Source of the DNA: Escherichia phage Cyrano
Reading direction: 5' to 3' (one strand)
Sequence record: OV696614
Length of the DNA stretch: 64,000 nt
The position numbers and the translations under genes were made by a program. The notes below the pieces were generated by a model. That model was given only the letters and a program-made list of their open reading frames with translations, searched no databases and was not told where the DNA came from. Shown in pieces: positions 45,359-64,000 of the stretch (position 1 is the first letter of the stretch; each line of letters starts with the position of its first letter).

Positions 45359-46459
45359 TCACACTGCGCGGAATGCGATTTCGCCAGGTATTACTTCACC
45401 TTGCCAATACATTTGGGCAGCAACGCGATCTGCGAGGTCACGATAAATAGCCGTAAATTCGCTATCTGGACGACTAATAACGGTTGGTGTTCCGTTATCC
45501 AGATCTTCACGAAGAGAGATATGAAGTGGCATTTGGCCTAACAACTGCGTGTTGTATTTCTCGGCCAGTTTCTGTGCGCCACCGGTGCCAAAAATTGGCT
45601 CGTGATGACCGCAGTTACTGCAAATATGCACACTCATGTTTTCGACGATACCCAGTACCGGCACTTCGACTTTTTCGAACATCACAATGCCTTTCTTCGC
45701 ATCGATCAGCGCGATGTCTTGCGGCGTAGTTACCACAACCGCACCAGTTACAGGAATGTTCTGCGCCAGCGTCAACTGAATATCACCAGTGCCCGGCGGC
45801 ATATCGAGAACGAGATAGTCCAGATCAGGCCACAGTGTTTCCTGCAACATCTGCATCAGCGCCTTGCTGGCCATCGGTCCACGCCACACCATCGCATTGT
45901 CGTCAGTGACCAGATAACCAATTGAATTGGTTGCCAGGCCATGAGACATGATAGGTGCCATGTGAGTACCGTCAGGTGAGGTTGGACGTTGGTTTTCCGC
46001 GCCCAGCATGGTTGGAATTGATGGCCCGTAGATATCGGCATCCAAAATACCAACTTTCGCACCTTCAGCCGCCAGCGCCAGCGCCAGGTTTACCGCCGTG
46101 GAGGATTTACCCACGCCGCCTTTACCGGAGCTGACCGCAATGATGTTCTTCACGCCATTAATGCCTGGTTGGTTTTTGACGCGCTTAAGCGTGGCAATGT
46201 TGTACGACAGCTTCCAGTCAATAGCCTTTGCGCCAGTGATACGGAGCAGATCACCACTACATTGCTCTTTCAGATCTTCAAAAGGCTTATTCCACACGAA
46301 AGGCATGATTAGTTCGACATGCAGTGTGTCATCCATCAACGCAACATGGTGTAACGCTTTAAGCGTAGTCAGGTTGTGTTTCAGGGTTGGGTGCTGAAAA
46401 TTAGCCAGCGTACCGGCTACCATTGCTCTCAGGGCATCCGGCGATTTGGACTCGCTCAT
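45359..46459 (-). CDS. apbC: Fe-S cluster carrier ATPase ApbC/Mrp
   Basis: 366 aa with deviant Walker A SGKGGVGKSSTAVNLA and CSNCGHHEP motif; matches the enterobacterial Mrp protein by recall; divergent from metG as on the E. coli chromosome. Confidence 0.9.
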   Translation of the reverse strand: MSESKSPDALRAMVAGTLANFQHPTLKHNLTTLKALHHVALMDDTLHVELIMPFVWNKPFEDLKEQCSGDLLRITGAKAIDWKLSYNIATLKRVKNQPGINGVKNIIAVSSGKGGVGKSSTAVNLALALAAEGAKVGILDADIYGPSIPTMLGAENQRPTSPDGTHMAPIMSHGLATNSIGYLVTDDNAMVWRGPMASKALMQMLQETLWPDLDYLVLDMPPGTGDIQLTLAQNIPVTGAVVVTTPQDIALIDAKKGIVMFEKVEVPVLGIVENMSVHICSNCGHHEPIFGTGGAQKLAEKYNTQLLGQMPLHISLREDLDNGTPTVISRPDSEFTAIYRDLADRVAAQMYWQGEVIPGEIAFRAV

Positions 46460-46616
46460 CCCGTCTCCTTTATTTTAATTTGCGCAATTGTCGCCTTGTA
46501 GTGTACTCCAGCTACGACATTTAATCATTTATGAGAAATGCTGTTATCACATGGCAGACATAAGGCCATTTTGTTACTATCAAGCCCCTTTTCACTACAA
46601 AGAAGTAATGCCTACT

Positions 46617-48650
46617 ATGACCCAAGTCGCGAAGAAAATTCTGGTGACGTGCGCGCTGCCGTACGCTAACGGCTCAATCCACCTCGGCCATATGCTGGAG
46701 CACATCCAGGCTGATGTCTGGGTTCGTTACCAGCGAATGCGCGGCCACGAGGTTAATTTCATCTGTGCCGACGATGCCCACGGTACGCCGATCATGCTGA
46801 AAGCACAGCAGCTTGGTATCACACCGGAGCAGATGATTGGCGAAATGAGTCAGGAGCATCAGACTGATTTCGCAGGCTTTAACATCAGCTATGACAACTA
46901 TCACTCGACGCACAGCGAAGAGAACCGTCAGTTGTCTGAGCTTATCTATACTCGCCTGAAAGAGAACGGTTTTATTAAAAACCGCACTATCTCTCAGTTG
47001 TACGACCCGGAAAAAGGCATGTTCCTGCCGGATCGTTTTGTGAAAGGCACCTGCCCGAAATGTAAAGCGCCAGATCAATACGGCGATAACTGTGAAGTCT
47101 GCGGCGCAACATATAGCCCGACTGAATTGATCGAGCCGAAATCGGTGGTTTCTGGCGCTACCCCGGTAATGCGTGATTCCGAACACTTCTTCTTTGATCT
47201 GCCTTCTTTCAGCGAAATGTTGCAGGCATGGACCCGCAGCGGCGCGTTGCAGGAGCAGGTGGCAAACAAAATGCAGGAGTGGTTTGAATCTGGCCTGCAA
47301 CAGTGGGATATCTCCCGCGATGCGCCTTACTTCGGTTTTGAAATTCCGGACGCGCCGGGCAAATATTTCTACGTCTGGCTGGACGCGCCGATTGGCTACA
47401 TGGGTTCCTTCAAGAATCTGTGCGACAAGCGCGGCGATACCACCAGCTTCGATGAATACTGGAAGAAAGACTCCACCGCCGAGCTGTACCACTTCATCGG
47501 TAAAGATATTGTTTACTTCCACAGCCTGTTCTGGCCTGCCATGCTGGAAGGCAGCAACTTCCGCAAGCCGACCAACCTGTTTGTTCACGGCTATGTGACG
47601 GTGAACGGCGCGAAGATGTCCAAGTCTCGCGGCACCTTTATTAAAGCCAGCACCTGGCTGAATCATTTTGACGCTGACAGCCTGCGTTACTACTACACTG
47701 CGAAACTCTCTTCGCGCATTGATGATATCGATCTCAACCTGGAGGATTTCGTTCAGCGCGTGAATGCCGATATCGTGAACAAAGTGGTTAACCTGGCCTC
47801 CCGTAATGCAGGCTTTATCAACAAGCGTTTTGACGGCGTGCTGGCAAGCGAACTGGCTGACCCGCAACTGTACAAAACCTTTACTGATGCCGCTGAAGTG
47901 ATTGGCGAAGCATGGGAAAGCCGTGAATTTGGTAAAGCTATCCGTGAAATCATGGCATTGGCTGACCTGGCTAACCGCTATGTCGATGAACAGGCTCCGT
48001 GGGTGGTGGCGAAGCAGGAAGGACGCGATGCCGATCTGCAGGCGATTTGCTCTATGGGCATTAACCTGTTCCGCGTGCTGATGACGTACCTGAAGCCGGT
48101 ACTGCCGAAACTGACTGAACGTGCAGAAGCATTCCTGAATACAGAACTGACCTGGGATGGCATCCAGCAACCGTTGCTGGGCCATAAAGTGAATCCGTTC
48201 AAGGCACTGTATAACCGCATCGATATGAAGCAGGTTGAAGCACTGGTGGAAGCATCCAAAGAAGAAGTGAAAGCCACAGCCGCACCGGTAACTGGCCCAC
48301 TGGCTGACGACCCGATTCAGGAAACTATCACCTTTGACGACTTCGCCAAAGTTGACCTGCGCGTGGCGCTGATTGAAAACGCAGAGTTTGTAGAAGGTTC
48401 TGACAAACTGCTACGCCTGACGCTGGATCTCGGTGGTGAAAAGCGTAATGTCTTCTCAGGCATCCGTTCTGCTTATCCAGACCCACAGGCACTGATTGGT
48501 CGTCACACCATTATGGTGGCTAACCTGGCTCCGCGTAAAATGCGCTTCGGTATCTCCGAAGGCATGGTGATGGCTGCTGGCCCCGGCGGGAAAGATATCT
48601 TCCTGTTAAGCCCGGATGCTGGTGCTAAACCAGGCCACCAGGTTAAGTAA
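46617..48650 (+). CDS. metG: methionyl-tRNA synthetase
   Basis: 677 aa starting [26 protein letters not shown] (HIGH motif), KMSKS motif present, zinc knuckles CPKC...CEVC; near-identical to E. coli MetG by recall. Start set at ATG 46617, not the listed upstream 46488. Confidence 0.95.
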
Positions 48651-50939: not shown

Positions 50940-51100
50940 CCTTCGGTCCATACAGGGAAAAGGCTGCATCCCGCTACAGAAACGGCTGGGTTGCCTTCGG
51001 GGAACGGCTGGAGGTTTTCAGGGAAACGGTCGAGTTGCCTGTGTGGATTTCGGGAAAAGGCTCGATGCCGGTTCAGGAACGGCGGCGTACCGGTATAGCG
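50940..51100. repeat. array of GGAAACGGC-type direct repeats
   Basis: CAGGGAAAAGGCTGC, CAGAAACGGCTGG, GGGGAACGGCTGG, CAGGGAAACGGTCG, CGGGAAAAGGCTCG and CAGGAACGGCGGCG at roughly 20-25 bp spacing; a similar array lies at 54604-54720. Confidence 0.55.
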
Positions 51101-54561: not shown

Positions 54562-55149
54562 CTGAGAAGAGGGCCAGAAACGGCCCTTTCTCTACAGCCA
54601 CCAGCTGCCGCAGGGAAATTTTCAGAAACGGCGAGGAACGTATTCATGAGCCGACGGGAAACGGCCAGGATTTTTTCGGGAAACGGCTGCATTCGCCTTT
54701 ATGTAGAAAAAACATCGGGAAGCTGGTGGAATCCAACCAGCGGTTGTCGGACAGGTGAGCGGGGAAAATCATGATGACTTTCGTCGCCTGAGACATCCAG
54801 ATTTCTTTCGTAGCGTAATCACATACGTGATTAAGTGGTGTGATTATGTGAAAAATCACGCGCACATAATACGCGAGCGGATACGGAACAAAACAAAATG
54901 CCGATCCGCGCCGACAATTAAACGCGGATCACATAGCAAGAATAAAAGCCAATGATTAACCATACACCATAACGCAATATAACGCGCTTAAATCGCGTTA
55001 ATGCGCTAAGTAATGGGTATGTACTGGTAAGGATATAAAAGCGCGTCTATGGCGTTATTTTGGCGCTTATTTTTATGTTGTTGGAGTGAGTCAAAGACAA
55101 TAAAAAAGCGCCATCATTGGCGCGTTATGGTGGGAGTATTGGAAACGAA

Positions 55150-59122: not shown

Positions 59123-60682
59123 CTAATCTCGTTTCAGAACTCCAAAATCGAATGCGCCATCAATAGGCAATACACCTTCTGCAAAGCCAGGTGTGGTGTC
59201 GATGATGTGTTTTCGCTCATAAGAGTGAGACAACAGGTATTTGTTGCTAATGTCAATGAAATCAGTGATAAAACACACGTTTGCCTGATTCTTCTTGGCT
59301 CGTAAGCCACGACCGACACGCTGTCTCATTTCAACTTCTGCTTTCCCACCACCAGCAAGAATGACCGCACCAACGCTTGGCACATCAACACCAACATCCA
59401 GAATAGTCGAGCCTATTAAAACATCTATTTCACCAGACGCTAAACTGTTCAGCTTTGCTTGCCTTGTCGACTGGTTCGATTCCCCATAAATGAAGTCAAC
59501 TCTAAGGCCGGACTCTTTCATCATTTCCATCAGGATTTGCCCGTGGCGTTTAAGACGAACCAGAGTCATGCAATTGAGAGAATGTTGCTTATAGAGCAAT
59601 GCTTCGCGCACAATGGCCTCGTTACGTCCCAAATTATACACGATCCCCAACTGATAAGCCTTTTGGTAGGCGGTGCTCATACCAACTCTAAAATTGAGGT
59701 GTTTGTTGGCAAGTTCGGCCTTGATTCTGGCCTCGTCTGGCTTGTAGGCAACTTTATGATAAAGGAAGTACGGTTTTGCCAGAATGCCTCGATCAATCAG
59801 GTACTTTTCTGTGACTTTGATTTCAATTCGCCCAGCCACAGCCATCAGACGCATGTTGGCTTCTGTAGAATCCTTCATGAACGGCGTGGCCGTAAGTGCC
59901 AGACGATAGTCTGCGTTCACACATAATCTGGCAATGTCATAGAAATTAGAACCTGAAGACTCATGCGCCTCTTCCAGAATAAGCAGAGACACACTTGAAA
60001 GGAAGCGTTTCACCAAGTCCCGACGTTTGAGGTGGTAGCTTTTCTTATCTGGTGTTGCATCGCGTGGTGGTTCTTCGAGGAAACTTGCAAGAGTTTGAAC
60101 TGTAGCGACGTTGATATGTCGTGATACCTGGAACTCACCCGAGCCAATGACTCCAACCTTTTGGTCTTTTAACCACGGTTCGCCATTTTTGGCGCGGTAG
60201 TCGATGGATCTCTGGAAGTTTTCGGCCATTTGAAACATCAGAACAGAGCGGGTTGTTAAAAATAATGTCATTCGACCGATACGTGCAGCTGCTTTGCAGG
60301 CAACATTAGATTTCCCGCCACCAGTAGCGATCTGCGCAATCATCATTCCCTCTCGAACCAGTGTTTCCACAGTCTGATCCTGATACGCATAATCAGGATT
60401 GTATGGGAATGGGTTAACCGCCGGATTTGGTTTACCAAGCGCCGGGGCTTTGTCTTTGCGGATATGAACACATTTGATGCCCGCCTTGTTCAAGTTCGCC
60501 GCTACAGGCTTGGCAAAGCCAGCAGGGAACGAGTTTTTACTCCAGTTGAACATCGTGCTTGTGCCCTTCCAGTCGCCAGTCTCGACTTCGTAGCTCAACA
60601 TCTGTTGCACCATTTGCTTTACCTTGTCATCTGCGCCAGAAATAAGCGCATTAACTGCGTTAGATACAATCCGAACAGTCAT
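59123..60682 (-). CDS. superfamily 2 DEAD/DEAH-box-type helicase
   Basis: Motif I IATGGGKS, motif II LILEEAHE, motif III LTATP, motif VI QRVGRGLR, in canonical order. Confidence 0.7.
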   Translation of the reverse strand: MTVRIVSNAVNALISGADDKVKQMVQQMLSYEVETGDWKGTSTMFNWSKNSFPAGFAKPVAANLNKAGIKCVHIRKDKAPALGKPNPAVNPFPYNPDYAYQDQTVETLVREGMMIAQIATGGGKSNVACKAAARIGRMTLFLTTRSVLMFQMAENFQRSIDYRAKNGEPWLKDQKVGVIGSGEFQVSRHINVATVQTLASFLEEPPRDATPDKKSYHLKRRDLVKRFLSSVSLLILEEAHESSGSNFYDIARLCVNADYRLALTATPFMKDSTEANMRLMAVAGRIEIKVTEKYLIDRGILAKPYFLYHKVAYKPDEARIKAELANKHLNFRVGMSTAYQKAYQLGIVYNLGRNEAIVREALLYKQHSLNCMTLVRLKRHGQILMEMMKESGLRVDFIYGESNQSTRQAKLNSLASGEIDVLIGSTILDVGVDVPSVGAVILAGGGKAEVEMRQRVGRGLRAKKNQANVCFITDFIDISNKYLLSHSYERKHIIDTTPGFAEGVLPIDGAFDFGVLKRD

Positions 60683-60764
60683 AAACCTCTTTCCTTAGTG
60701 CCTTTTGTATGTTATTTGGCTATTATAATAAGTAAGTGACTACTTAGTGGATTGTAGCAATAAA

Positions 60765-61445
60765 ATGGATGTAAAAATCACGATTTTGCAGGTTGATGTT
60801 GCCAACCTTCGCCCGAATACCTGGAACACCAATTCGGTTGGTGCGCAGAATTTTGAAAAACTGAAAGGTTCTATCGAAAAATTGGGCTTTTTTAAGCCAA
60901 TTTTGGCTCGTGAACTTGAAGATGGATTTTTTGAAATCCTCGGCGGCGAACATCGCTGGCGTGCTGCTATTGAGCAAGGAATTTCAACGGTTCCGGTGCT
61001 TTCTGTGGGCAAAATTAGCGATGTCGTAGCTAAACAGATGTCACTGGTGGACAACGAGCGATACGGTGAAGACGACCAAATCGCATTGCAACGCTTCATT
61101 GAAGAAATTCAGTCAGAACTTGACTATCAACTGTCTGAAATCGCCCCGTATGACGACGAAATCTCGATGGTTTTAGCAAAAGAGGCGGCAATCGACCTTG
61201 AAGCACTGGAGGCGTTGTCTCGTGGTAGTGATGAGCCTGTCGATACCGACAAACGAGAGAAAACCGAACGTGTCGGTGCGGAACATCAGACCATGCGCTT
61301 CAAAGTAACTTTCGATGCGTCAGATCGTGTTGCAGAAACCATAAAAAACATCATCAAAGAGCAGGCTATTAACACCGGTAATGAAATGGAGAACGCTGGT
61401 GAGGCTCTGGTGTGGCTGGTCGACTACTACAAGGAGCGTATGTAA
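60765..61445 (+). CDS. ParB/Srx-like N-terminal (ParB nuclease) domain protein 1
   Basis: LRPNTWNTNSV...LKGSIEKLGFFKPILAREL...EILGGEHRWRAA matches the ParB N-terminal domain signature (GERRWRAA-like). Start set at ATG 60765. Confidence 0.65.
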   Translation: MDVKITILQVDVANLRPNTWNTNSVGAQNFEKLKGSIEKLGFFKPILARELEDGFFEILGGEHRWRAAIEQGISTVPVLSVGKISDVVAKQMSLVDNERYGEDDQIALQRFIEEIQSELDYQLSEIAPYDDEISMVLAKEAAIDLEALEALSRGSDEPVDTDKREKTERVGAEHQTMRFKVTFDASDRVAETIKNIIKEQAINTGNEMENAGEALVWLVDYYKERM

Positions 61446-62113
61446 TGACCAAAAAGTTTGAAATCGTATATCGCGACCCGGCAGATCTTATTCCCTATGA
61501 GATGAATGCCAAAAAGCATGATGAACAGCAGATCCGAGATCTGGCCGCAGCCATTAAAAAGCGCGGATTTGACCAGCCAATTACGGTCGATAAGAACGAC
61601 GTAATTATTACTGGCCACGGCCGCCGTGAGGCTGCAATTTTTGCTGGACTTGAGCGCGTACCGGTTATTGTTCGCGATGATCTCAGTGATGACGAGGTTC
61701 GTGCGAAGCGCCTTGAAGATAACCGACTTGCCAGCATTGATTACGATGCAATTAAGCTACAGAAAGAGCTTGAGTCGCTTGTTCTGGACGATATTGAGGT
61801 TTTCGGCTTTGAAGAGCGTGAGTTGAATGTTCTCGTTGGCAGTATGACAGAAGAAATGGACACCGACTCGCTAGTTATCGATCTTGGCGAAGAAACTAAA
61901 CGACAGAAGGATGAACACACCGAGATCAGTCGTGAAGTTGCAGCGGAAGAAGTACGTGTTGTCGACGTATTGGGCTTTAAAACGCTCCCTGCTGGCTCTG
62001 CCATTGTTGTTGGTGATTTGCTTGCCCACATGGAAGAAATGACGGGAGAAAGCGGGGTAGACGCATTTGTGGCATATGCGGAGAAGATCTCTTCCGGGGA
62101 GATGGCTGCATGA
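61445..62113 (+). CDS. ParB/Srx-like N-terminal (ParB nuclease) domain protein 2
   Basis: LIPYEMNAKKHDEQQIRDLAAAIKKRGFDQPITV...ITGHGRREAA is a second ParB-N-like signature; start overlaps the upstream stop (TAATG). Confidence 0.65.
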   Translation: MTKKFEIVYRDPADLIPYEMNAKKHDEQQIRDLAAAIKKRGFDQPITVDKNDVIITGHGRREAAIFAGLERVPVIVRDDLSDDEVRAKRLEDNRLASIDYDAIKLQKELESLVLDDIEVFGFEERELNVLVGSMTEEMDTDSLVIDLGEETKRQKDEHTEISREVAAEEVRVVDVLGFKTLPAGSAIVVGDLLAHMEEMTGESGVDAFVAYAEKISSGEMAA

Positions 62114-62775
62114 GCAAATACATCATCAACGTATCGTTTCAGACACGCGTAAATAAAACCACGCGCACGTTGGAAATCGCTGAGTCGTTCGGGCTTGGCC
62201 TGGACGAAAAAGAGTGGACGCTTTACGACAATCTGGATCTGGAAGTGAAGCAGGGCGATGTGGTGTACATCACCGGCCAATCCGGTTCCGGCAAATCCGT
62301 TGTGCTGCGCGAGTTGCAACGACAGATGAAGGATGAAGGGCTGTCTGTAGCCTCCATCGATGATTTTACCTTCGATAATGAGGTTAACGTCATCGATCAG
62401 TTGGGCAAAACGACCAGTGATGCGCTTGGGTTGTTATCTATGGCTGGTCTGAACGATGCATATCTGTTTGTTCGCAAGCCTTCTGAAATGTCAGACGGTC
62501 AGAAATATCGTCTCAAGATTGCCAAACTGATTGAGTCAGGCGCTAAAGTGTGGGCTGCTGACGAGTTCGGTGCTGTTCTAGACCGTGTAACCGCCCAGGT
62601 TGTGGCATCTAACCTCCAGCGTGCCGCTCGAAAGGTTGGTGCGACGGTAATGGTGGCGACGACTCACGAAGACCTGAAGAACGCGCTGCGCCCGGATATG
62701 CAGATCACCAAGCACTACAAAGAACGCGTGAAGGTGGAATATCACAATGGTAGTCATGATGAGGTTCATTTATGA
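62110..62775 (+). CDS. soluble ABC-type ATPase (nucleotide-binding domain only)
   Basis: Walker A GQSGSGKS, ABC signature-like MSDGQKYRL, Walker B VWAADEFG, D-loop AVLD, H-loop ATTHE, in ABC order; 221 aa with no transmembrane or TOPRIM domain. Confidence 0.6.
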   Translation: MSKYIINVSFQTRVNKTTRTLEIAESFGLGLDEKEWTLYDNLDLEVKQGDVVYITGQSGSGKSVVLRELQRQMKDEGLSVASIDDFTFDNEVNVIDQLGKTTSDALGLLSMAGLNDAYLFVRKPSEMSDGQKYRLKIAKLIESGAKVWAADEFGAVLDRVTAQVVASNLQRAARKVGATVMVATTHEDLKNALRPDMQITKHYKERVKVEYHNGSHDEVHL

Positions 62776-63662
62776 CGGACATCATCATTAAACGCTACCG
62801 CCCTGAAGAGTTTCCGCGTCATCTGGACTTTCTGGAGCGAATGACTGTCACAAAGGGAACTGTAGAGGACTGGCACGCTCTTAAGTCGCTTCACTACAAA
62901 ACAGACGGCAAACCTTTCGCGCCAACTTACTATCGCTGCGAACTTGATGACCGTCTGGTGGGCGTCGTGGTTATGGCTTACCCGAAACTACTGTTGGCAC
63001 CTCGCCACCGCATGTTTCCTAAGTTGAAACCAACCACTAATACCACCGTGGCTAACCAGTACTGGGGTCGGTACGTGAATAACAACTTTGCGGTGATCAG
63101 TCGCTCAGTTGTGGATACTCAGTATCGTGGCGTAGGCGTCTCTTATCGAATGATTAACCTGGTTAGCAGGATGCATGACCGGCCAATCATTGAGATCCAG
63201 TCCTCGATGAGCAAATACAATCCCTTCGCCATGAAAGCAGGGTTTAAGTTCATCCGCCCTGAGCGACCGAAGAGCTATGAAAGTGCACTGCGTGTATTCC
63301 AGCGCCATTTCCGTTCCGACCCGGGTGATAACGAGGCGATCGTCAAAGAGTTGTTCGCAATGAGCGAGTCTCGTCGTCGCCGTGCATTGCGTGATCTGGT
63401 GGCGGACTACCACAAGAACAGTTCCCTGGCAAAAGCTGGGCGGAATCGTGGCACGACGATTCAGGACATTGCCGACAGTCTGGTGGACGAGGCCAGCATT
63501 GTGAAGCTGCTCAAGGACATTCACAACCTGAGCTTTACGTCTCCGTTGTATGGTGTGTACCGAAACCCTGACTTTGGCCGTCGACTGCCTGACACGCTGC
63601 CACTGCTGGCATTCGACAAACAACCTTTGGATAAACCGTTAGAAATTGCTTTACCGGCATAA
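62772..63662 (+). CDS. GNAT-fold acyltransferase-like protein (putative)
   Basis: VVDTQYRGVGVSYRMINLV resembles GNAT motif A (R/Q-x-x-G-x-G/A) and NPFAMKAGFKF resembles motif B; about 120 aa C-terminal extension. Confidence 0.45.
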   Translation: MTDIIIKRYRPEEFPRHLDFLERMTVTKGTVEDWHALKSLHYKTDGKPFAPTYYRCELDDRLVGVVVMAYPKLLLAPRHRMFPKLKPTTNTTVANQYWGRYVNNNFAVISRSVVDTQYRGVGVSYRMINLVSRMHDRPIIEIQSSMSKYNPFAMKAGFKFIRPERPKSYESALRVFQRHFRSDPGDNEAIVKELFAMSESRRRRALRDLVADYHKNSSLAKAGRNRGTTIQDIADSLVDEASIVKLLKDIHNLSFTSPLYGVYRNPDFGRRLPDTLPLLAFDKQPLDKPLEIALPA

Positions 63663-63671
63663 GGATTTGCC

Positions 63672-63938
63672 ATGACGTTAACCGATAAACAAAAGGACAT
63701 CATCAAAACGCTCAATCTCGGTTATGAGCGAGGTCATCTACTTGATCTGGACGAATTGCTTGAAGTTTTGCCGTACAAGACAACCAAGCAAAGTATCCAG
63801 TTCTCAATTCGCGCTCTGATAAAAAAGGGGCTGGTGGAGAAAGGGCATACGCGCCAACGCAGTGACAATCGCTATCACCGCCGAACTCTTGGGTTAACCA
63901 CTTTAGGTCGAGCCAAAGCGAAGTTACTGGTGATGTAA
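63672..63938 (+). CDS. small putative winged-helix DNA-binding protein
   Basis: 88 aa; IQFSIRALIKKGLVEKGH resembles a winged-helix recognition helix/wing; last gene of the plus-strand cluster. Confidence 0.35.
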   Translation: MTLTDKQKDIIKTLNLGYERGHLLDLDELLEVLPYKTTKQSIQFSIRALIKKGLVEKGHTRQRSDNRYHRRTLGLTTLGRAKAKLLVM

Positions 63939-64000
63939 TCGGTCTGGGAGCTTATTTAAAGACCTGCATCTGTATATATAAATAATAAGTAACTTATTAA

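What the first reader, a model, noticed from the sequence alone, without database searches (positions are those of the whole stretch)
60683..63938. Operon of two ParB-nuclease-domain proteins, a stand-alone ABC ATPase, a GNAT-fold protein and a small wH regulator
Five coupled plus-strand genes with clear motifs: two tandem ParB-N-like proteins (GGEHRWRAA, GHGRREAA), a 221-aa ABC-type ATPase (Walker A, LSDGQ-like signature, Walker B, H-loop) and a GNAT-like protein, but no ParA-type partition ATPase and no TOPRIM nuclease. I do not recognise this combination as a described partition, restriction or abortive-infection system. It could be a DNA-modification module (GNAT as a Mom-like acyltransferase) or an ABC-ATPase-driven nuclease defence in which ParB-like proteins replace the usual TOPRIM partner. 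The GGAAACGGC repeat arrays at 50.9 and 54.6 kb are candidate binding sites. The window ends at 64000, so the operon may continue.
Basis: partly seen in the sequence, partly recalled or inferred. Interest (0 to 1): 0.78.

Follow-up and report, generated by a model that had tools for sequence, protein, structure and literature searches.

The report
Terminase-linked ParB plus ABC–GNAT phage module
The five genes are real, but they are neither a plasmid partition system nor a defence system: they are an uncharacterised core module of SSU5-type phages, made of two ParB-like proteins, a split ATPase–acyltransferase enzyme and a small DNA-binding protein, that sits beside the DNA-packaging genes in both bacterial and archaeal viruses and most likely acts on phage DNA late in infection.

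Summary
The window is an SSU5-like E. coli phage-plasmid. It carries five translationally coupled + strand genes:
- two paralogous, acidic ParB-like proteins that lack the ParB HTH domain;
- a motif-complete ABC ATPase;
- a GNAT-fold protein with an intact acyl-CoA loop;
- an 88-aa probable winged-helix protein.

New findings:
1. ORF3 and ORF4 are the two halves of one enzyme. Hundreds of viral and archaeal proteins carry ABC→GNAT fused in that order. Some add a ParB-like domain, a family-B DNA polymerase or an intein.
2. The module lies directly upstream of the TerS-like, TerL, portal and capsid genes.
3. This synteny holds at about 40–45% identity in non-temperate ~110-kb siphophages (nickie, RHEph10) and in prophages of unrelated bacteria.
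4. In Bathyarchaeota-type viruses, a Thaumarchaeota provirus and a Gemmata prophage, the fused gene again abuts TerL.
5. ORF3 and ORF4 are about as conserved as TerL.

Partition and defence readings are not supported. The best reading (about 0.35) is a late, ParB-assisted, ATP-dependent acyltransferase acting on phage DNA. The main rival is a packaging cofactor. No paper or solved structure characterises the family. The GGAAACGGC-like arrays are real, but nothing links them to the operon.

The parts
59123..60682 (-). Divergently transcribed DEAD/ResIII (UvsW/XPB-like) helicase. It is a conserved syntenic neighbour of the module.
   Evidence: Pfam ResIII 1.1e-14, DEAD 2.1e-14, Helicase_C 3.7e-13. 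The same divergent position is seen in L004-L007 and L183-L187.
60683..60764 (.). 82-bp divergent intergenic region holding a perfect TATAAT at 60723-60728. Presumed promoter region; not tested.
   Evidence: Sequence read directly. The consensus scan found no full sigma-70 match here.
60765..61445 (+). ORF1: ParB-like protein A, 226 aa, pI 4.55. It has a ParB nucleotide-binding domain with GGEHR (H63 and R64 invariant) and DNxRYG, an acidic linker and a small conserved C-terminal domain.
   Evidence: ParB_N 3.3e-13; phrog_723 2e-79; Spo0J/ParB/Noc in the PDB at 2.6e-9; family alignment A3; pI.
61445..62113 (+). ORF2: ParB-like protein B, 222 aa, pI 4.53, a full-length paralogue of ORF1. It has a GHGR motif, an acidic helical linker and a C-terminal helical domain, with no ParB HTH domain.
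   Evidence: ParB_N 1.5e-8; phrog_930 1e-112 and ParB-methyltransferase phrog_498 5e-32; hhalign against the ORF1 family gives probability 98.9 over 192 columns; AF2 pLDDT 80 with Foldseek matches to Noc, ParB-CDP and KorB over about 131-138 columns only.
62110..62775 (+). ORF3: soluble ABC-type ATPase, 221 aa, with all catalytic motifs. It is the N-terminal half of a split ABC-GNAT enzyme.
   Evidence: ABC_tran 4.5e-13; motifs; matches the N-terminal ~200 residues of more than 60 fused proteins at E 1e-12 to 1e-63 (most 1e-40 to 1e-63); phrog_11143 positions 2-185.
62772..63662 (+). ORF4: GNAT-fold protein, 296 aa, pI 9.8, with a conserved acyl-CoA loop and a family-specific C-terminal region. 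It is the C-terminal half of the split enzyme.
63672..63938 (+). ORF5: 88-aa basic (pI 10.2) probable winged-helix DNA-binding protein, conserved in this position.
   Evidence: phrog_900 1.9e-45; sub-threshold wHTH hits; syntenic homologues aligned in A8.
63929..64000 (.). Left arm and centre of a ~120-bp imperfect palindrome lying between ORF5 and the TerS-like gene, cut by the window end. It is a candidate cos/pac site or operator.
   Evidence: In the 99.9% identical plasmid the arms are L003 23247-23306 and 23308-23367, 60 nt each and 70% complementary. The inner arms are conserved in SSU5 and Klebsiella pJN2-26. The SSU5 record and this window both end near its centre.

Best explanation
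The operon encodes a late-acting, DNA-directed enzyme complex of the phage. ORF3 and ORF4 together form one ATP-dependent GNAT acyltransferase. By analogy with other ABC ATPases, the ABC domain would dimerise on ATP and use hydrolysis to engage or remodel the substrate, while the basic GNAT half would transfer an acyl group from an acyl-CoA.

The two acidic ParB-like paralogues keep the nucleotide-binding fold and a C-terminal domain but have no HTH. They probably act as a hetero-oligomeric NTP-dependent activator or adaptor that lets the enzyme work on double-stranded DNA. This is how ParB-like partners serve phage thymine dioxygenases, and how ParB domains accompany phage DNA methyltransferases.

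The most likely substrate is the phage's own DNA, modified after replication and before or during packaging, so that packaged genomes are marked or protected. ORF5 is a small DNA-binding regulator or site-recognition subunit.

Shown: the folds, the motifs, the split-enzyme relationship, the fusions, the terminase linkage and the degree of conservation. Inferred: that DNA is the substrate, that acyl transfer occurs, that ParB acts as an activator, and the late timing.
For: 1. ORF3+ORF4 are a split form of a widespread fused ABC→GNAT protein. A profile of ORF4 finds 887 proteins, and most outside the SSU5 lineage are 410-560 aa with ORF3-like residues followed by ORF4-like residues. phrog_11143 is hit by both ORFs in order.

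2. Fusions tie the enzyme to DNA. ParB-like+Zn-ribbon+ABC+GNAT proteins of ~680 aa exist; hhalign of their N-termini against the ORF2 family gives probability 98.0, E 2.6e-13. PolB+ABC+GNAT occurs inside a phage replication module. One member carries an intein in the ABC domain.

3. ORF2's nearest relatives outside its own family are the ParB domains of phage DNA methyltransferases: phrog_498 at 5e-32 and PADLOC MTase_II at 2.8e-17.

4. The ORF2 model has a nucleotide-binding domain, a linker and a C-terminal domain, and matches ParB structures only over the first ~131-138 columns, so no HTH domain is evident. That is the architecture reported for ParB activators of phage T-dioxygenases on dsDNA (PMC13229309).

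5. The acyl-CoA loop and all ATPase motifs are conserved, in both the split and the fused forms.

6. The module sits with terminase in several unrelated virus lineages. Late-gene, genome-end placement is also where Mu mom and prophage ParB-methyltransferases lie (my own knowledge).

Against: - No modified base has been shown, and I found no report of unusual DNA in SSU5-type phages.
- ORF3 and ORF4 are conserved at about the level of TerL. That is higher than is usual for anti-restriction functions and would equally suit a morphogenetic role.
- ORF1/ORF2-type ParB genes were detected in only 1 of 80 archaeal-type viral loci. Those contigs are truncated, however, and my HMMs are narrow.
- The ParB-like proteins are very acidic and may not touch DNA at all.
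Confidence: 0.35

Rival explanations
1. The module is a packaging cofactor rather than a DNA modifier. The ParB-like proteins (as an NTP-gated nickase or switch) and the ABC-GNAT protein assist terminase at the cos/pac site in the palindrome between ORF5 and the TerS-like gene. This would parallel the HNH endonuclease that HK97-type cos phages encode at the genome end next to terminase.
For: - The module abuts the TerS-like and TerL genes in the SSU5/nickie lineage.
- The fused gene overlaps the end of TerL in 66 of 80 archaeal-type viral loci.
- It is also adjacent to TerL in Bathyarchaeota, Thaumarchaeota and Gemmata loci.
- ORF3 and ORF4 are about as conserved as TerL.
- A conserved ~120-bp palindrome, at which the SSU5 record is broken, lies right after ORF5.
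- A Nickievirus TerL groups with 3' cos phages (PMC8537276).
- ParB/Srx domains can nick DNA (review in PMC5512222).
Against: - It does not explain a conserved acyl-CoA-binding loop in the GNAT half.
- It does not explain the PolB fusion in a replication module.
- None of the five proteins is similar to a known terminase subunit or to HNH.
- No nuclease activity has been shown for this ParB subfamily.
Confidence: 0.25
2. The module is a DNA-associated protein acetyltransferase. The ABC-GNAT enzyme acylates lysines or N-termini of DNA-bound proteins, such as host nucleoid proteins (HU or H-NS) or phage replication and packaging proteins, to clear or tune them on phage DNA.
For: - One archaeal member is fused to TFIIB cyclin repeats.
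- The DNA-linked fusions and contexts fit this reading too.
Against: - No substrate candidate is conserved across bacterial and archaeal hosts.
- The module is equally conserved in viruses of hosts with unrelated chromatin proteins.
- Fold ranking among GNATs does not predict substrate.
Confidence: 0.15
3. The module is an anti-phage defence or abortive-infection system carried by the plasmid-prophage, with an ABC ATPase partnered by ParB-like nucleases in place of TOPRIM (PARIS/OLD/Gabija-like).
For: - A stand-alone ABC ATPase lies next to putative nuclease-fold proteins.
- Weak PADLOC hits appear, to mad3/mad8, PtuA and ATPase-Toprim, from E 1.7e-13 (mad3) to about 1e-3, mostly over the P-loop region.
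Against: - The module is present with the same synteny in non-temperate ~110-kb phages.
- It always lies inside the late/packaging block and is about as conserved as TerL.
- ORF4 has no PADLOC hit.
- The ABC domain is of the transporter-NBD type and lacks the coiled-coil or TOPRIM partner of the OLD, PARIS and Gabija families.
Confidence: 0.03
4. The module is a plasmid partition or segregation system for the phage-plasmid, with ParB centromere-binding proteins acting on the GGAAACGGC-type arrays.
For: - The proteins have the ParB_N fold.
- Conserved 22-bp-phased repeat arrays lie at 50955-51083 and 54576-54687.
Against: - No ParA gene is adjacent.
- No HTH or other basic DNA-binding domain is present, and both ParB-like proteins have pI 4.5.
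- NCBIfam ParB models are matched far below their cut-offs.
- The same genes occur in non-plasmid phages, in integrated prophages and in archaeal proviruses.
- They are fused to ABC-GNAT in other elements.
Confidence: 0.02

Closest known systems
ParB-dependent phage thymine dioxygenases (5mYOX clade E with a cognate ParB; PMC13229309)
   Same: A phage ParB-like protein with a nucleotide-binding domain and a C-terminal domain but no DNA-binding domain is encoded next to a DNA-acting enzyme and is required for its activity on dsDNA. Terminase genes are often nearby.
   Different: The partner enzyme here is an ABC ATPase plus a GNAT acyltransferase, not an Fe/2-oxoglutarate dioxygenase. There are two paralogous ParB-like proteins. 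No activity has been demonstrated.
Phage ParB-N6/N4 DNA methyltransferase fusions (phrog_498; PADLOC MTase_II PDLC03229)
   Same: ORF2's ParB domain is closest to the ParB domains of these enzymes (5e-32 and 2.8e-17). They are also typically late, terminase-proximal prophage genes (the placement is from my own knowledge).
   Different: No methyltransferase domain is present. The catalytic partner is replaced by ABC-GNAT and encoded separately.
Mom of phage Mu (GNAT-fold adenine-modifying enzyme, PDB 8bv8)
   Different: Mom is not specifically closer than other GNATs. Mom has no ABC ATPase or ParB partner. Sequence identity is about 10%.
COG2401 / phrog_11143 'ABC-type ATPase fused to a predicted acetyltransferase domain'
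   Same: It has the same two domains in the same order. JGI gives this name to ORF4 homologues. ORF3 and ORF4 both match the fused proteins.
   Different: The enzyme here is split into two overlapping genes. The family itself has no known function, structure or substrate.
TmcA/NAT10 (ATPase-coupled GNAT that acetylates cytidine in RNA)
   Same: It gives a conceptual precedent for a GNAT whose nucleic-acid base acetylation is driven by an attached ATPase (my own knowledge).
   Different: Its ATPase is a RecD-like helicase domain, not an ABC domain. No sequence relationship was detected, and its substrate is tRNA or rRNA.
ParABS partition systems
   Same: They share the ParB N-terminal nucleotide-binding fold, with the box II Arg and box III Asn conserved.
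   Different: There is no ParA, no HTH domain and no demonstrated parS. The module occurs in viruses that do not replicate as plasmids.

Membership tests
ParABS partition system | An adjacent ParA/Soj-type ATPase gene | tested here: not met
   The operon neighbours are a helicase and the ABC, GNAT and TerS-like genes. The only ParA-like ORF in the window, 45359-46459, is annotated as host-type apbC next to metG.
ParABS partition system | A ParB with a central HTH DNA-binding domain | tested here: not met
   The ORF2 AF2 model matches ParB, Noc and KorB only over the first ~131-138 columns. The rest is an acidic helical linker and a small C-terminal domain. pI is 4.5. TIGR00180 scores 43 bits against a cut-off of 58.
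ParABS partition system | Restricted to replicons that need segregation | tested here: not met
   The same module occurs in Nickievirus, Rhizobium and Stenotrophomonas phages, in integrated prophages and in an archaeal provirus.
ParB/Srx (ParB-CTPase) fold superfamily | The N-terminal alpha/beta nucleotide-binding fold with a conserved box II Arg | tested here: met
   Pfam ParB_N is above cut-off for both ORFs. Foldseek gives E 1.9e-7 to Noc and 4.9e-7 to ParB-CDP. R64 (ORF1) and R60 (ORF2) are invariant.
ABC ATPase superfamily | Walker A, Q-loop region, LSGGQ-type signature, Walker B D-E and H-loop | tested here: met
   ABC_tran 4.5e-13. Motifs were located at 56-63, 127-131, 147-152 and 184-187 and are invariant in the fused family.
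ABC transporter (as annotated in databases) | An associated membrane permease or substrate-binding protein | tested here: not met
   No membrane protein gene lies in the operon or in syntenic loci. The partner is a GNAT domain, fused in hundreds of relatives.
GNAT acyltransferase superfamily | The GNAT fold and the acyl-CoA pyrophosphate-binding loop (Q/R-x-x-G-x-G/A) | tested here: met
GNAT acyltransferase superfamily | Acyl-CoA-dependent transfer activity | not testable with these tools
   This needs biochemistry.
Mom-like DNA base-modifying GNATs | Specific relatedness to Mom beyond the generic GNAT fold | tested here: inconclusive
Mom-like DNA base-modifying GNATs | A modified base in virion DNA that depends on the gene | not testable with these tools
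   This needs LC-MS or long-read kinetics on phage DNA.
COG2401-type ABC-GNAT fusion family (phrog_11143) | An ABC domain followed by a GNAT domain of this specific family | tested here: met
   ORF3 (E 1e-12 to 1e-63) and ORF4 (E 1e-10 to 1e-24) match consecutive parts of the same proteins. Both hit phrog_11143. JGI's names for ORF4 homologues agree.
PARIS / OLD / Gabija-type ABC-ATPase defence systems | An ABC ATPase paired or fused with a TOPRIM (or other dedicated) nuclease, recognised by defence HMMs | tested here: not met
   PADLOC gives no system-specific match: mad3/mad8 match at E 1.7e-13 and 2.6e-9 and the rest (PtuA, BrxD, DndF, ATPase-Toprim) only at about 1e-3, mostly over the P-loop region. 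ORF4 has no hit and there is no TOPRIM.
PARIS / OLD / Gabija-type ABC-ATPase defence systems | Accessory, patchy distribution in defence islands | tested here: not met
   The module holds a fixed position next to terminase in every lineage examined and is conserved about as well as TerL.
Terminase small subunit / HNH-type packaging cofactors | Sequence or profile similarity to known TerS or HNH families | tested here: not met
   The only hit is a P-loop-level match of ORF3 to phrog_800 (E 0.0017). The TerS-like gene (phrog_867) is a separate gene downstream.

The most novel reading that the evidence does not exclude
The ABC-GNAT enzyme, helped by ParB-like NTP switches, is an ATP-driven DNA acyltransferase. 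That would be a previously unknown class of DNA base modification, for example acylation of an exocyclic amine. It would be installed just before or during packaging, inherited as a core function by a lineage of large siphoviruses, and shared with archaeal tailed viruses.
Probability: 0.3. Interest if true: 0.85.

Novelty: new variant of a known kind. Interest (0 to 1): 0.6.

Why it matters
This gene set sits in hundreds of sequenced clinical plasmids of Klebsiella, E. coli, Enterobacter, Yersinia and Salmonella (772 PLSDB records), where it is annotated as 'partition proteins' and 'ABC transporter'. Those labels are misleading.

The evidence shows a deeply conserved enzyme next to terminase, shared by bacterial and archaeal tailed viruses and about as conserved as the large terminase, yet with no known function.

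If it modifies DNA, it would add an ATP- and acyl-CoA-dependent chemistry to the list of phage DNA modifications. It would also give a second enzymatic context, after the T-dioxygenases, for ParB-like activators. If instead it is a packaging cofactor, it would define a new accessory machine for a large phage lineage. Either answer is testable with inducible SSU5-type phage-plasmids in E. coli K-12.

Tried and rejected

2. The afdb50 fold library was unavailable.

3. Literature searches found no characterisation of the module. I searched for COG2401, for 'ABC-type ATPase fused … acetyltransferase', for ParB-like+terminase+ABC+acetyltransferase, and for archaeal-virus terms. The Klebsiella 'p2' defence paper does not mention these genes.

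4. The first IMG/VR scan, with the ORF4 family, returned only close relatives (≥78% identity) and added nothing on distant co-occurrence. I repeated it with the fused family.

5. The contigs for the ParB-fusion protein P0226 and for P0191 were too short or too poorly annotated to give context.

6. Tandem Repeats Finder found no array at 48-64 kb. The arrays appear only as a degenerate 9-mer with 22-bp phasing. The exact GGAAACGGC occurs only 3 times in the window, none of them at 50.9 kb.

7. The N-termini of P0191, P0203 and P0231 look like a P-loop domain plus a PD-(D/E)xK nuclease by eye. Pfam gave only sub-threshold Pox_A32 and KAP hits (E ~0.02), so I treat this as a lead, not a result.

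8. The consensus promoter and terminator scans were no better than shuffled sequence.

9. I rejected a transporter role, because there is no permease and the partner is a GNAT. I rejected partition and defence for the reasons given in the membership table.

Full report
**What the window is.** The region is 99.9% identical to E. coli plasmid pF404-2, 98.7-98.9% to Escherichia phages PhiR41_1 and CMS-2020a, and 85% to Salmonella phage SSU5. Related copies occur in 772 PLSDB plasmids, mostly non-mobilizable, from Klebsiella, Escherichia, Enterobacter, Yersinia and Salmonella. It is therefore an SSU5-type phage-plasmid.

**Observation.**
- Five + strand ORFs lie at 60765-61445, 61445-62113, 62110-62775, 62772-63662 and 63672-63938.
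- Their junctions are TAATG, ATGA, ATGA and a 9-nt gap.
- ORF1 and ORF2 pass Pfam ParB_N, and ORF3 passes ABC_tran.
- ORF4 is barely detectable as a GNAT by sequence (E 0.037) and has no PDB sequence match.
- The acyl-CoA loop R-x-x-G-x-S/A/G is conserved.
- ORF5 belongs to a conserved ~90-aa family with a winged-helix-like pattern, supported only by sub-threshold matches.

**ORF3 and ORF4 are one enzyme.**
- JGI labels ORF4 homologues 'ABC-type ATPase with predicted acetyltransferase domain'.
- ORF3 and ORF4 hit consecutive parts of phrog_11143.
- A profile of the ORF4 family, searched against 1.84 billion representative proteins, finds 887 relatives.
- Outside the SSU5 lineage most are 410-560 aa. 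Their N-terminal ~200 residues match ORF3 (most at E 1e-40 to 1e-63), and the following part matches ORF4.
- All ATPase motifs and the GNAT loop are invariant in that fused family.
- No solved structure exists beyond generic transporter nucleotide-binding domains.

**The ParB-like pair.**
- ORF1 and ORF2 are paralogues over their full length (hhalign probability 98.9).
- Both are strongly acidic (pI 4.5).
- The ORF2 model (pLDDT 80) matches Noc, ParB-CDP and KorB only over the first ~131-138 columns. An acidic helical linker and a small, confident C-terminal helical domain follow, so the canonical HTH domain is not evident.
- The box II Arg and box III Asn are invariant in both families. The catalytic Glu equivalent is present only in ORF1, and there it varies. 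This mapping to canonical ParB motifs is my inference.
- ORF2's closest relatives outside its own PHROG are the ParB domains of phage DNA methyltransferases (phrog_498 at 5e-32; PADLOC MTase_II at 2.8e-17).

**Fusions link the parts.**
- Four ~680-aa metagenomic proteins carry an N-terminal domain, a zinc ribbon, then ABC and GNAT.
- That N-terminal domain is homologous to the ORF2 family (probability 98.0, E 2.6e-13) and the ORF1 family (probability 96.5).
- Other members are fused to a family-B DNA polymerase inside a phage replication module that also holds a 5'-3' exonuclease, prim-pol, RecA and an RNA ligase.
- One member carries a LAGLIDADG intein in the ABC domain, and one ends in TFIIB repeats.

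**Context and distribution.**
- In near-identical records the window end is followed by a ~195-bp spacer and then a TerS-like HTH protein (phrog_867), TerL, portal, scaffold, major capsid and tail genes. Upstream lies a divergent helicase.
- The same order holds at 40-45% ORF4 identity: helicase(-) | ParB, ParB, ABC, 0-3 variable small genes, GNAT, ~90-aa gene, TerS-like, TerL, portal.
- It is found in a prophage on a 3.3-Mb contig, in Ectothiorhodospira, Chitinibacter, Sphingomonadales and Betaproteobacteria genomes, and as a decayed copy in Halomonas.
- It is also found in ~110-kb phages: Pseudomonas phage nickie, Rhizobium RHEph10-like phages, and Stenotrophomonas and Xanthomonas phages.
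- A Nickievirus member was reported to show no temperate behaviour (PMC8537276).
- Against SSU5, Klebsiella pJN2-26, nickie and Ectothiorhodospira, amino-acid identity is 98.6, 96.6, 40.9 and 44.9% for ORF4 and 93.7, 91.4, 54.3 and 55.2% for ORF3.
- The corresponding values are 96.4, 95.2, 55.2 and 62.4% for TerL and 87.9, 87.6, 52.0 and 58.2% for the capsid protein. The ParB-like proteins and ORF5 evolve faster.

**Independent terminase linkage.**
- A scan of IMG/VR with the fused family found 450 relatives.
- In the best 80 loci (~40% identity) the fused gene lies immediately downstream of a TerL gene (phrog_2, E 1e-37) in 66 loci, at a median offset of -8 nt on the same strand. Tail genes lie upstream.
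- The contig usually ends soon after (median 1.4 kb downstream against 7.9 kb upstream).
- In species-representative genomes the fused gene is rare.
- It follows TerL in two Bathyarchaeota MAGs and in a Gemmata MAG, where host cytochrome genes come next.
- In a Thaumarchaeota MAG the order is ABC-GNAT, then a ParB_N protein (Pfam 3.8e-10), then TerL fragments.

**Interpretation.**
- Partition is contradicted by architecture and distribution.
- Defence is contradicted by the module's core status, its position and the lack of defence-specific matches.
- What unifies the ParB fusions, the polymerase fusion, the kinship with methyltransferase ParB domains and the terminase linkage is an enzyme acting on phage DNA late in the cycle.
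- A direct precedent exists. Phage ParB-like proteins with a nucleotide-binding domain and a C-terminal domain but no DNA-binding domain are required for a thymine dioxygenase to act on dsDNA (PMC13229309).
- A recent survey lists ParB-methyltransferase fusions in phages and a bacterial ParB-acetyltransferase fusion (bioRxiv 10.1101/2025.10.10.680097).
- Mom is the top viral structural match, but only marginally.
- I therefore favour an ATP-dependent, ParB-assisted DNA acyltransferase at confidence 0.35.
- A packaging cofactor acting at the palindrome is the main rival (0.25), and a DNA-associated protein acetyltransferase is third (0.15).

**Repeat arrays.**
- The exact GGAAACGGC occurs only three times in the window, none at 50.9 kb.
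- The degenerate RGRAAMGGC occurs 13 times against 3.8 expected. It clusters at 50956-51083 and 54576-54687 with 22-bp phasing.
- Arrays of the slightly looser RGRAAMGGY motif lie at syntenic places in SSU5.
- The arrays are real and conserved, but nothing links them to ORF1 or ORF2.

**Novelty.** The sequences are known and common, and the function is not. The nearest described kind is the ParB-associated phage DNA-modifying enzyme. The ABC-GNAT effector and its terminase linkage across bacterial and archaeal viruses make this a new variant of that kind.

Noticed in passing
window 63929-64000 (continues beyond the window; L003 23247-23367): A ~120-bp imperfect palindrome lies right after ORF5. 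Its inner arms, CCTGCTTCYGTATATA / TATATACGGAAGCAGG, are conserved in SSU5 and Klebsiella pJN2-26. The SSU5 linear record and this window both end within about 10 nt of its centre. Downstream lie two CAGWAAACAAGTTGKTT repeats and a stem-loop just before the TerS-like start. It is a candidate cos/pac site or operator.
   Followed up: partly
window 50955-51083 and 54576-54687: Two arrays of RGRAAMGGY units with 22-bp phasing, of about 6 and 4 units. Equivalent arrays lie at syntenic positions in SSU5 (L014 7497-7602 and 11096-11160). They lie in stretches between annotated genes and their binding protein is unknown. They are not near repA.
   Followed up: partly
window 45359-46459 (-) and 46488-48650 (+): The phage-plasmid carries host-type apbC (Mrp/ParA-like Fe-S carrier) and metG (methionyl-tRNA synthetase) genes, so named by PGAP on the 99.9% identical plasmid. 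This looks like captured chromosomal cargo.
   Followed up: no
between ORF3 and ORF4 (window 62772-62775 junction); L002 8059-8313; L178 9055-9606; L005 6961-7999: The ABC/GNAT junction is an insertion hot-spot. This window has no gene there. SSU5 has an 84-aa phrog_796 gene, Klebsiella pJN2-26 a 183-aa gene, and the Ectothiorhodospira prophage three genes, including Phage_gp49_66 and RyR-domain proteins.
   Followed up: no
L009/L010 8001-11783 (protein P0206); protein P0165: A 1260-aa PolB-ABC-GNAT fusion, seen in many metagenome samples, sits within a phage replication module. A separate family member carries a LAGLIDADG intein inserted in the ABC domain.
   Followed up: partly
L184 (Halomonas sulfidaeris AP019514.1, 1898222-1912839): A decayed chromosomal copy of the whole block. 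The helicase, GNAT, TerL and portal genes are each split into several ORFs, which indicates a degenerating prophage.
   Followed up: no
L016/L015 (pF404-2; parts correspond to the first ~19 kb of the window, not inspected there): The element encodes its own DnaE, DnaB-like helicase, NrdAB, a 367-aa thymidylate-synthase homologue, DHFR, RNase HI, a CobT/AAA pair, Dam-type and DUF4942 methyltransferases, and a TA-type GNAT (DUF1778 pair). The long ThyA homologue may deserve a check for hydroxymethylase-type changes.
   Followed up: no
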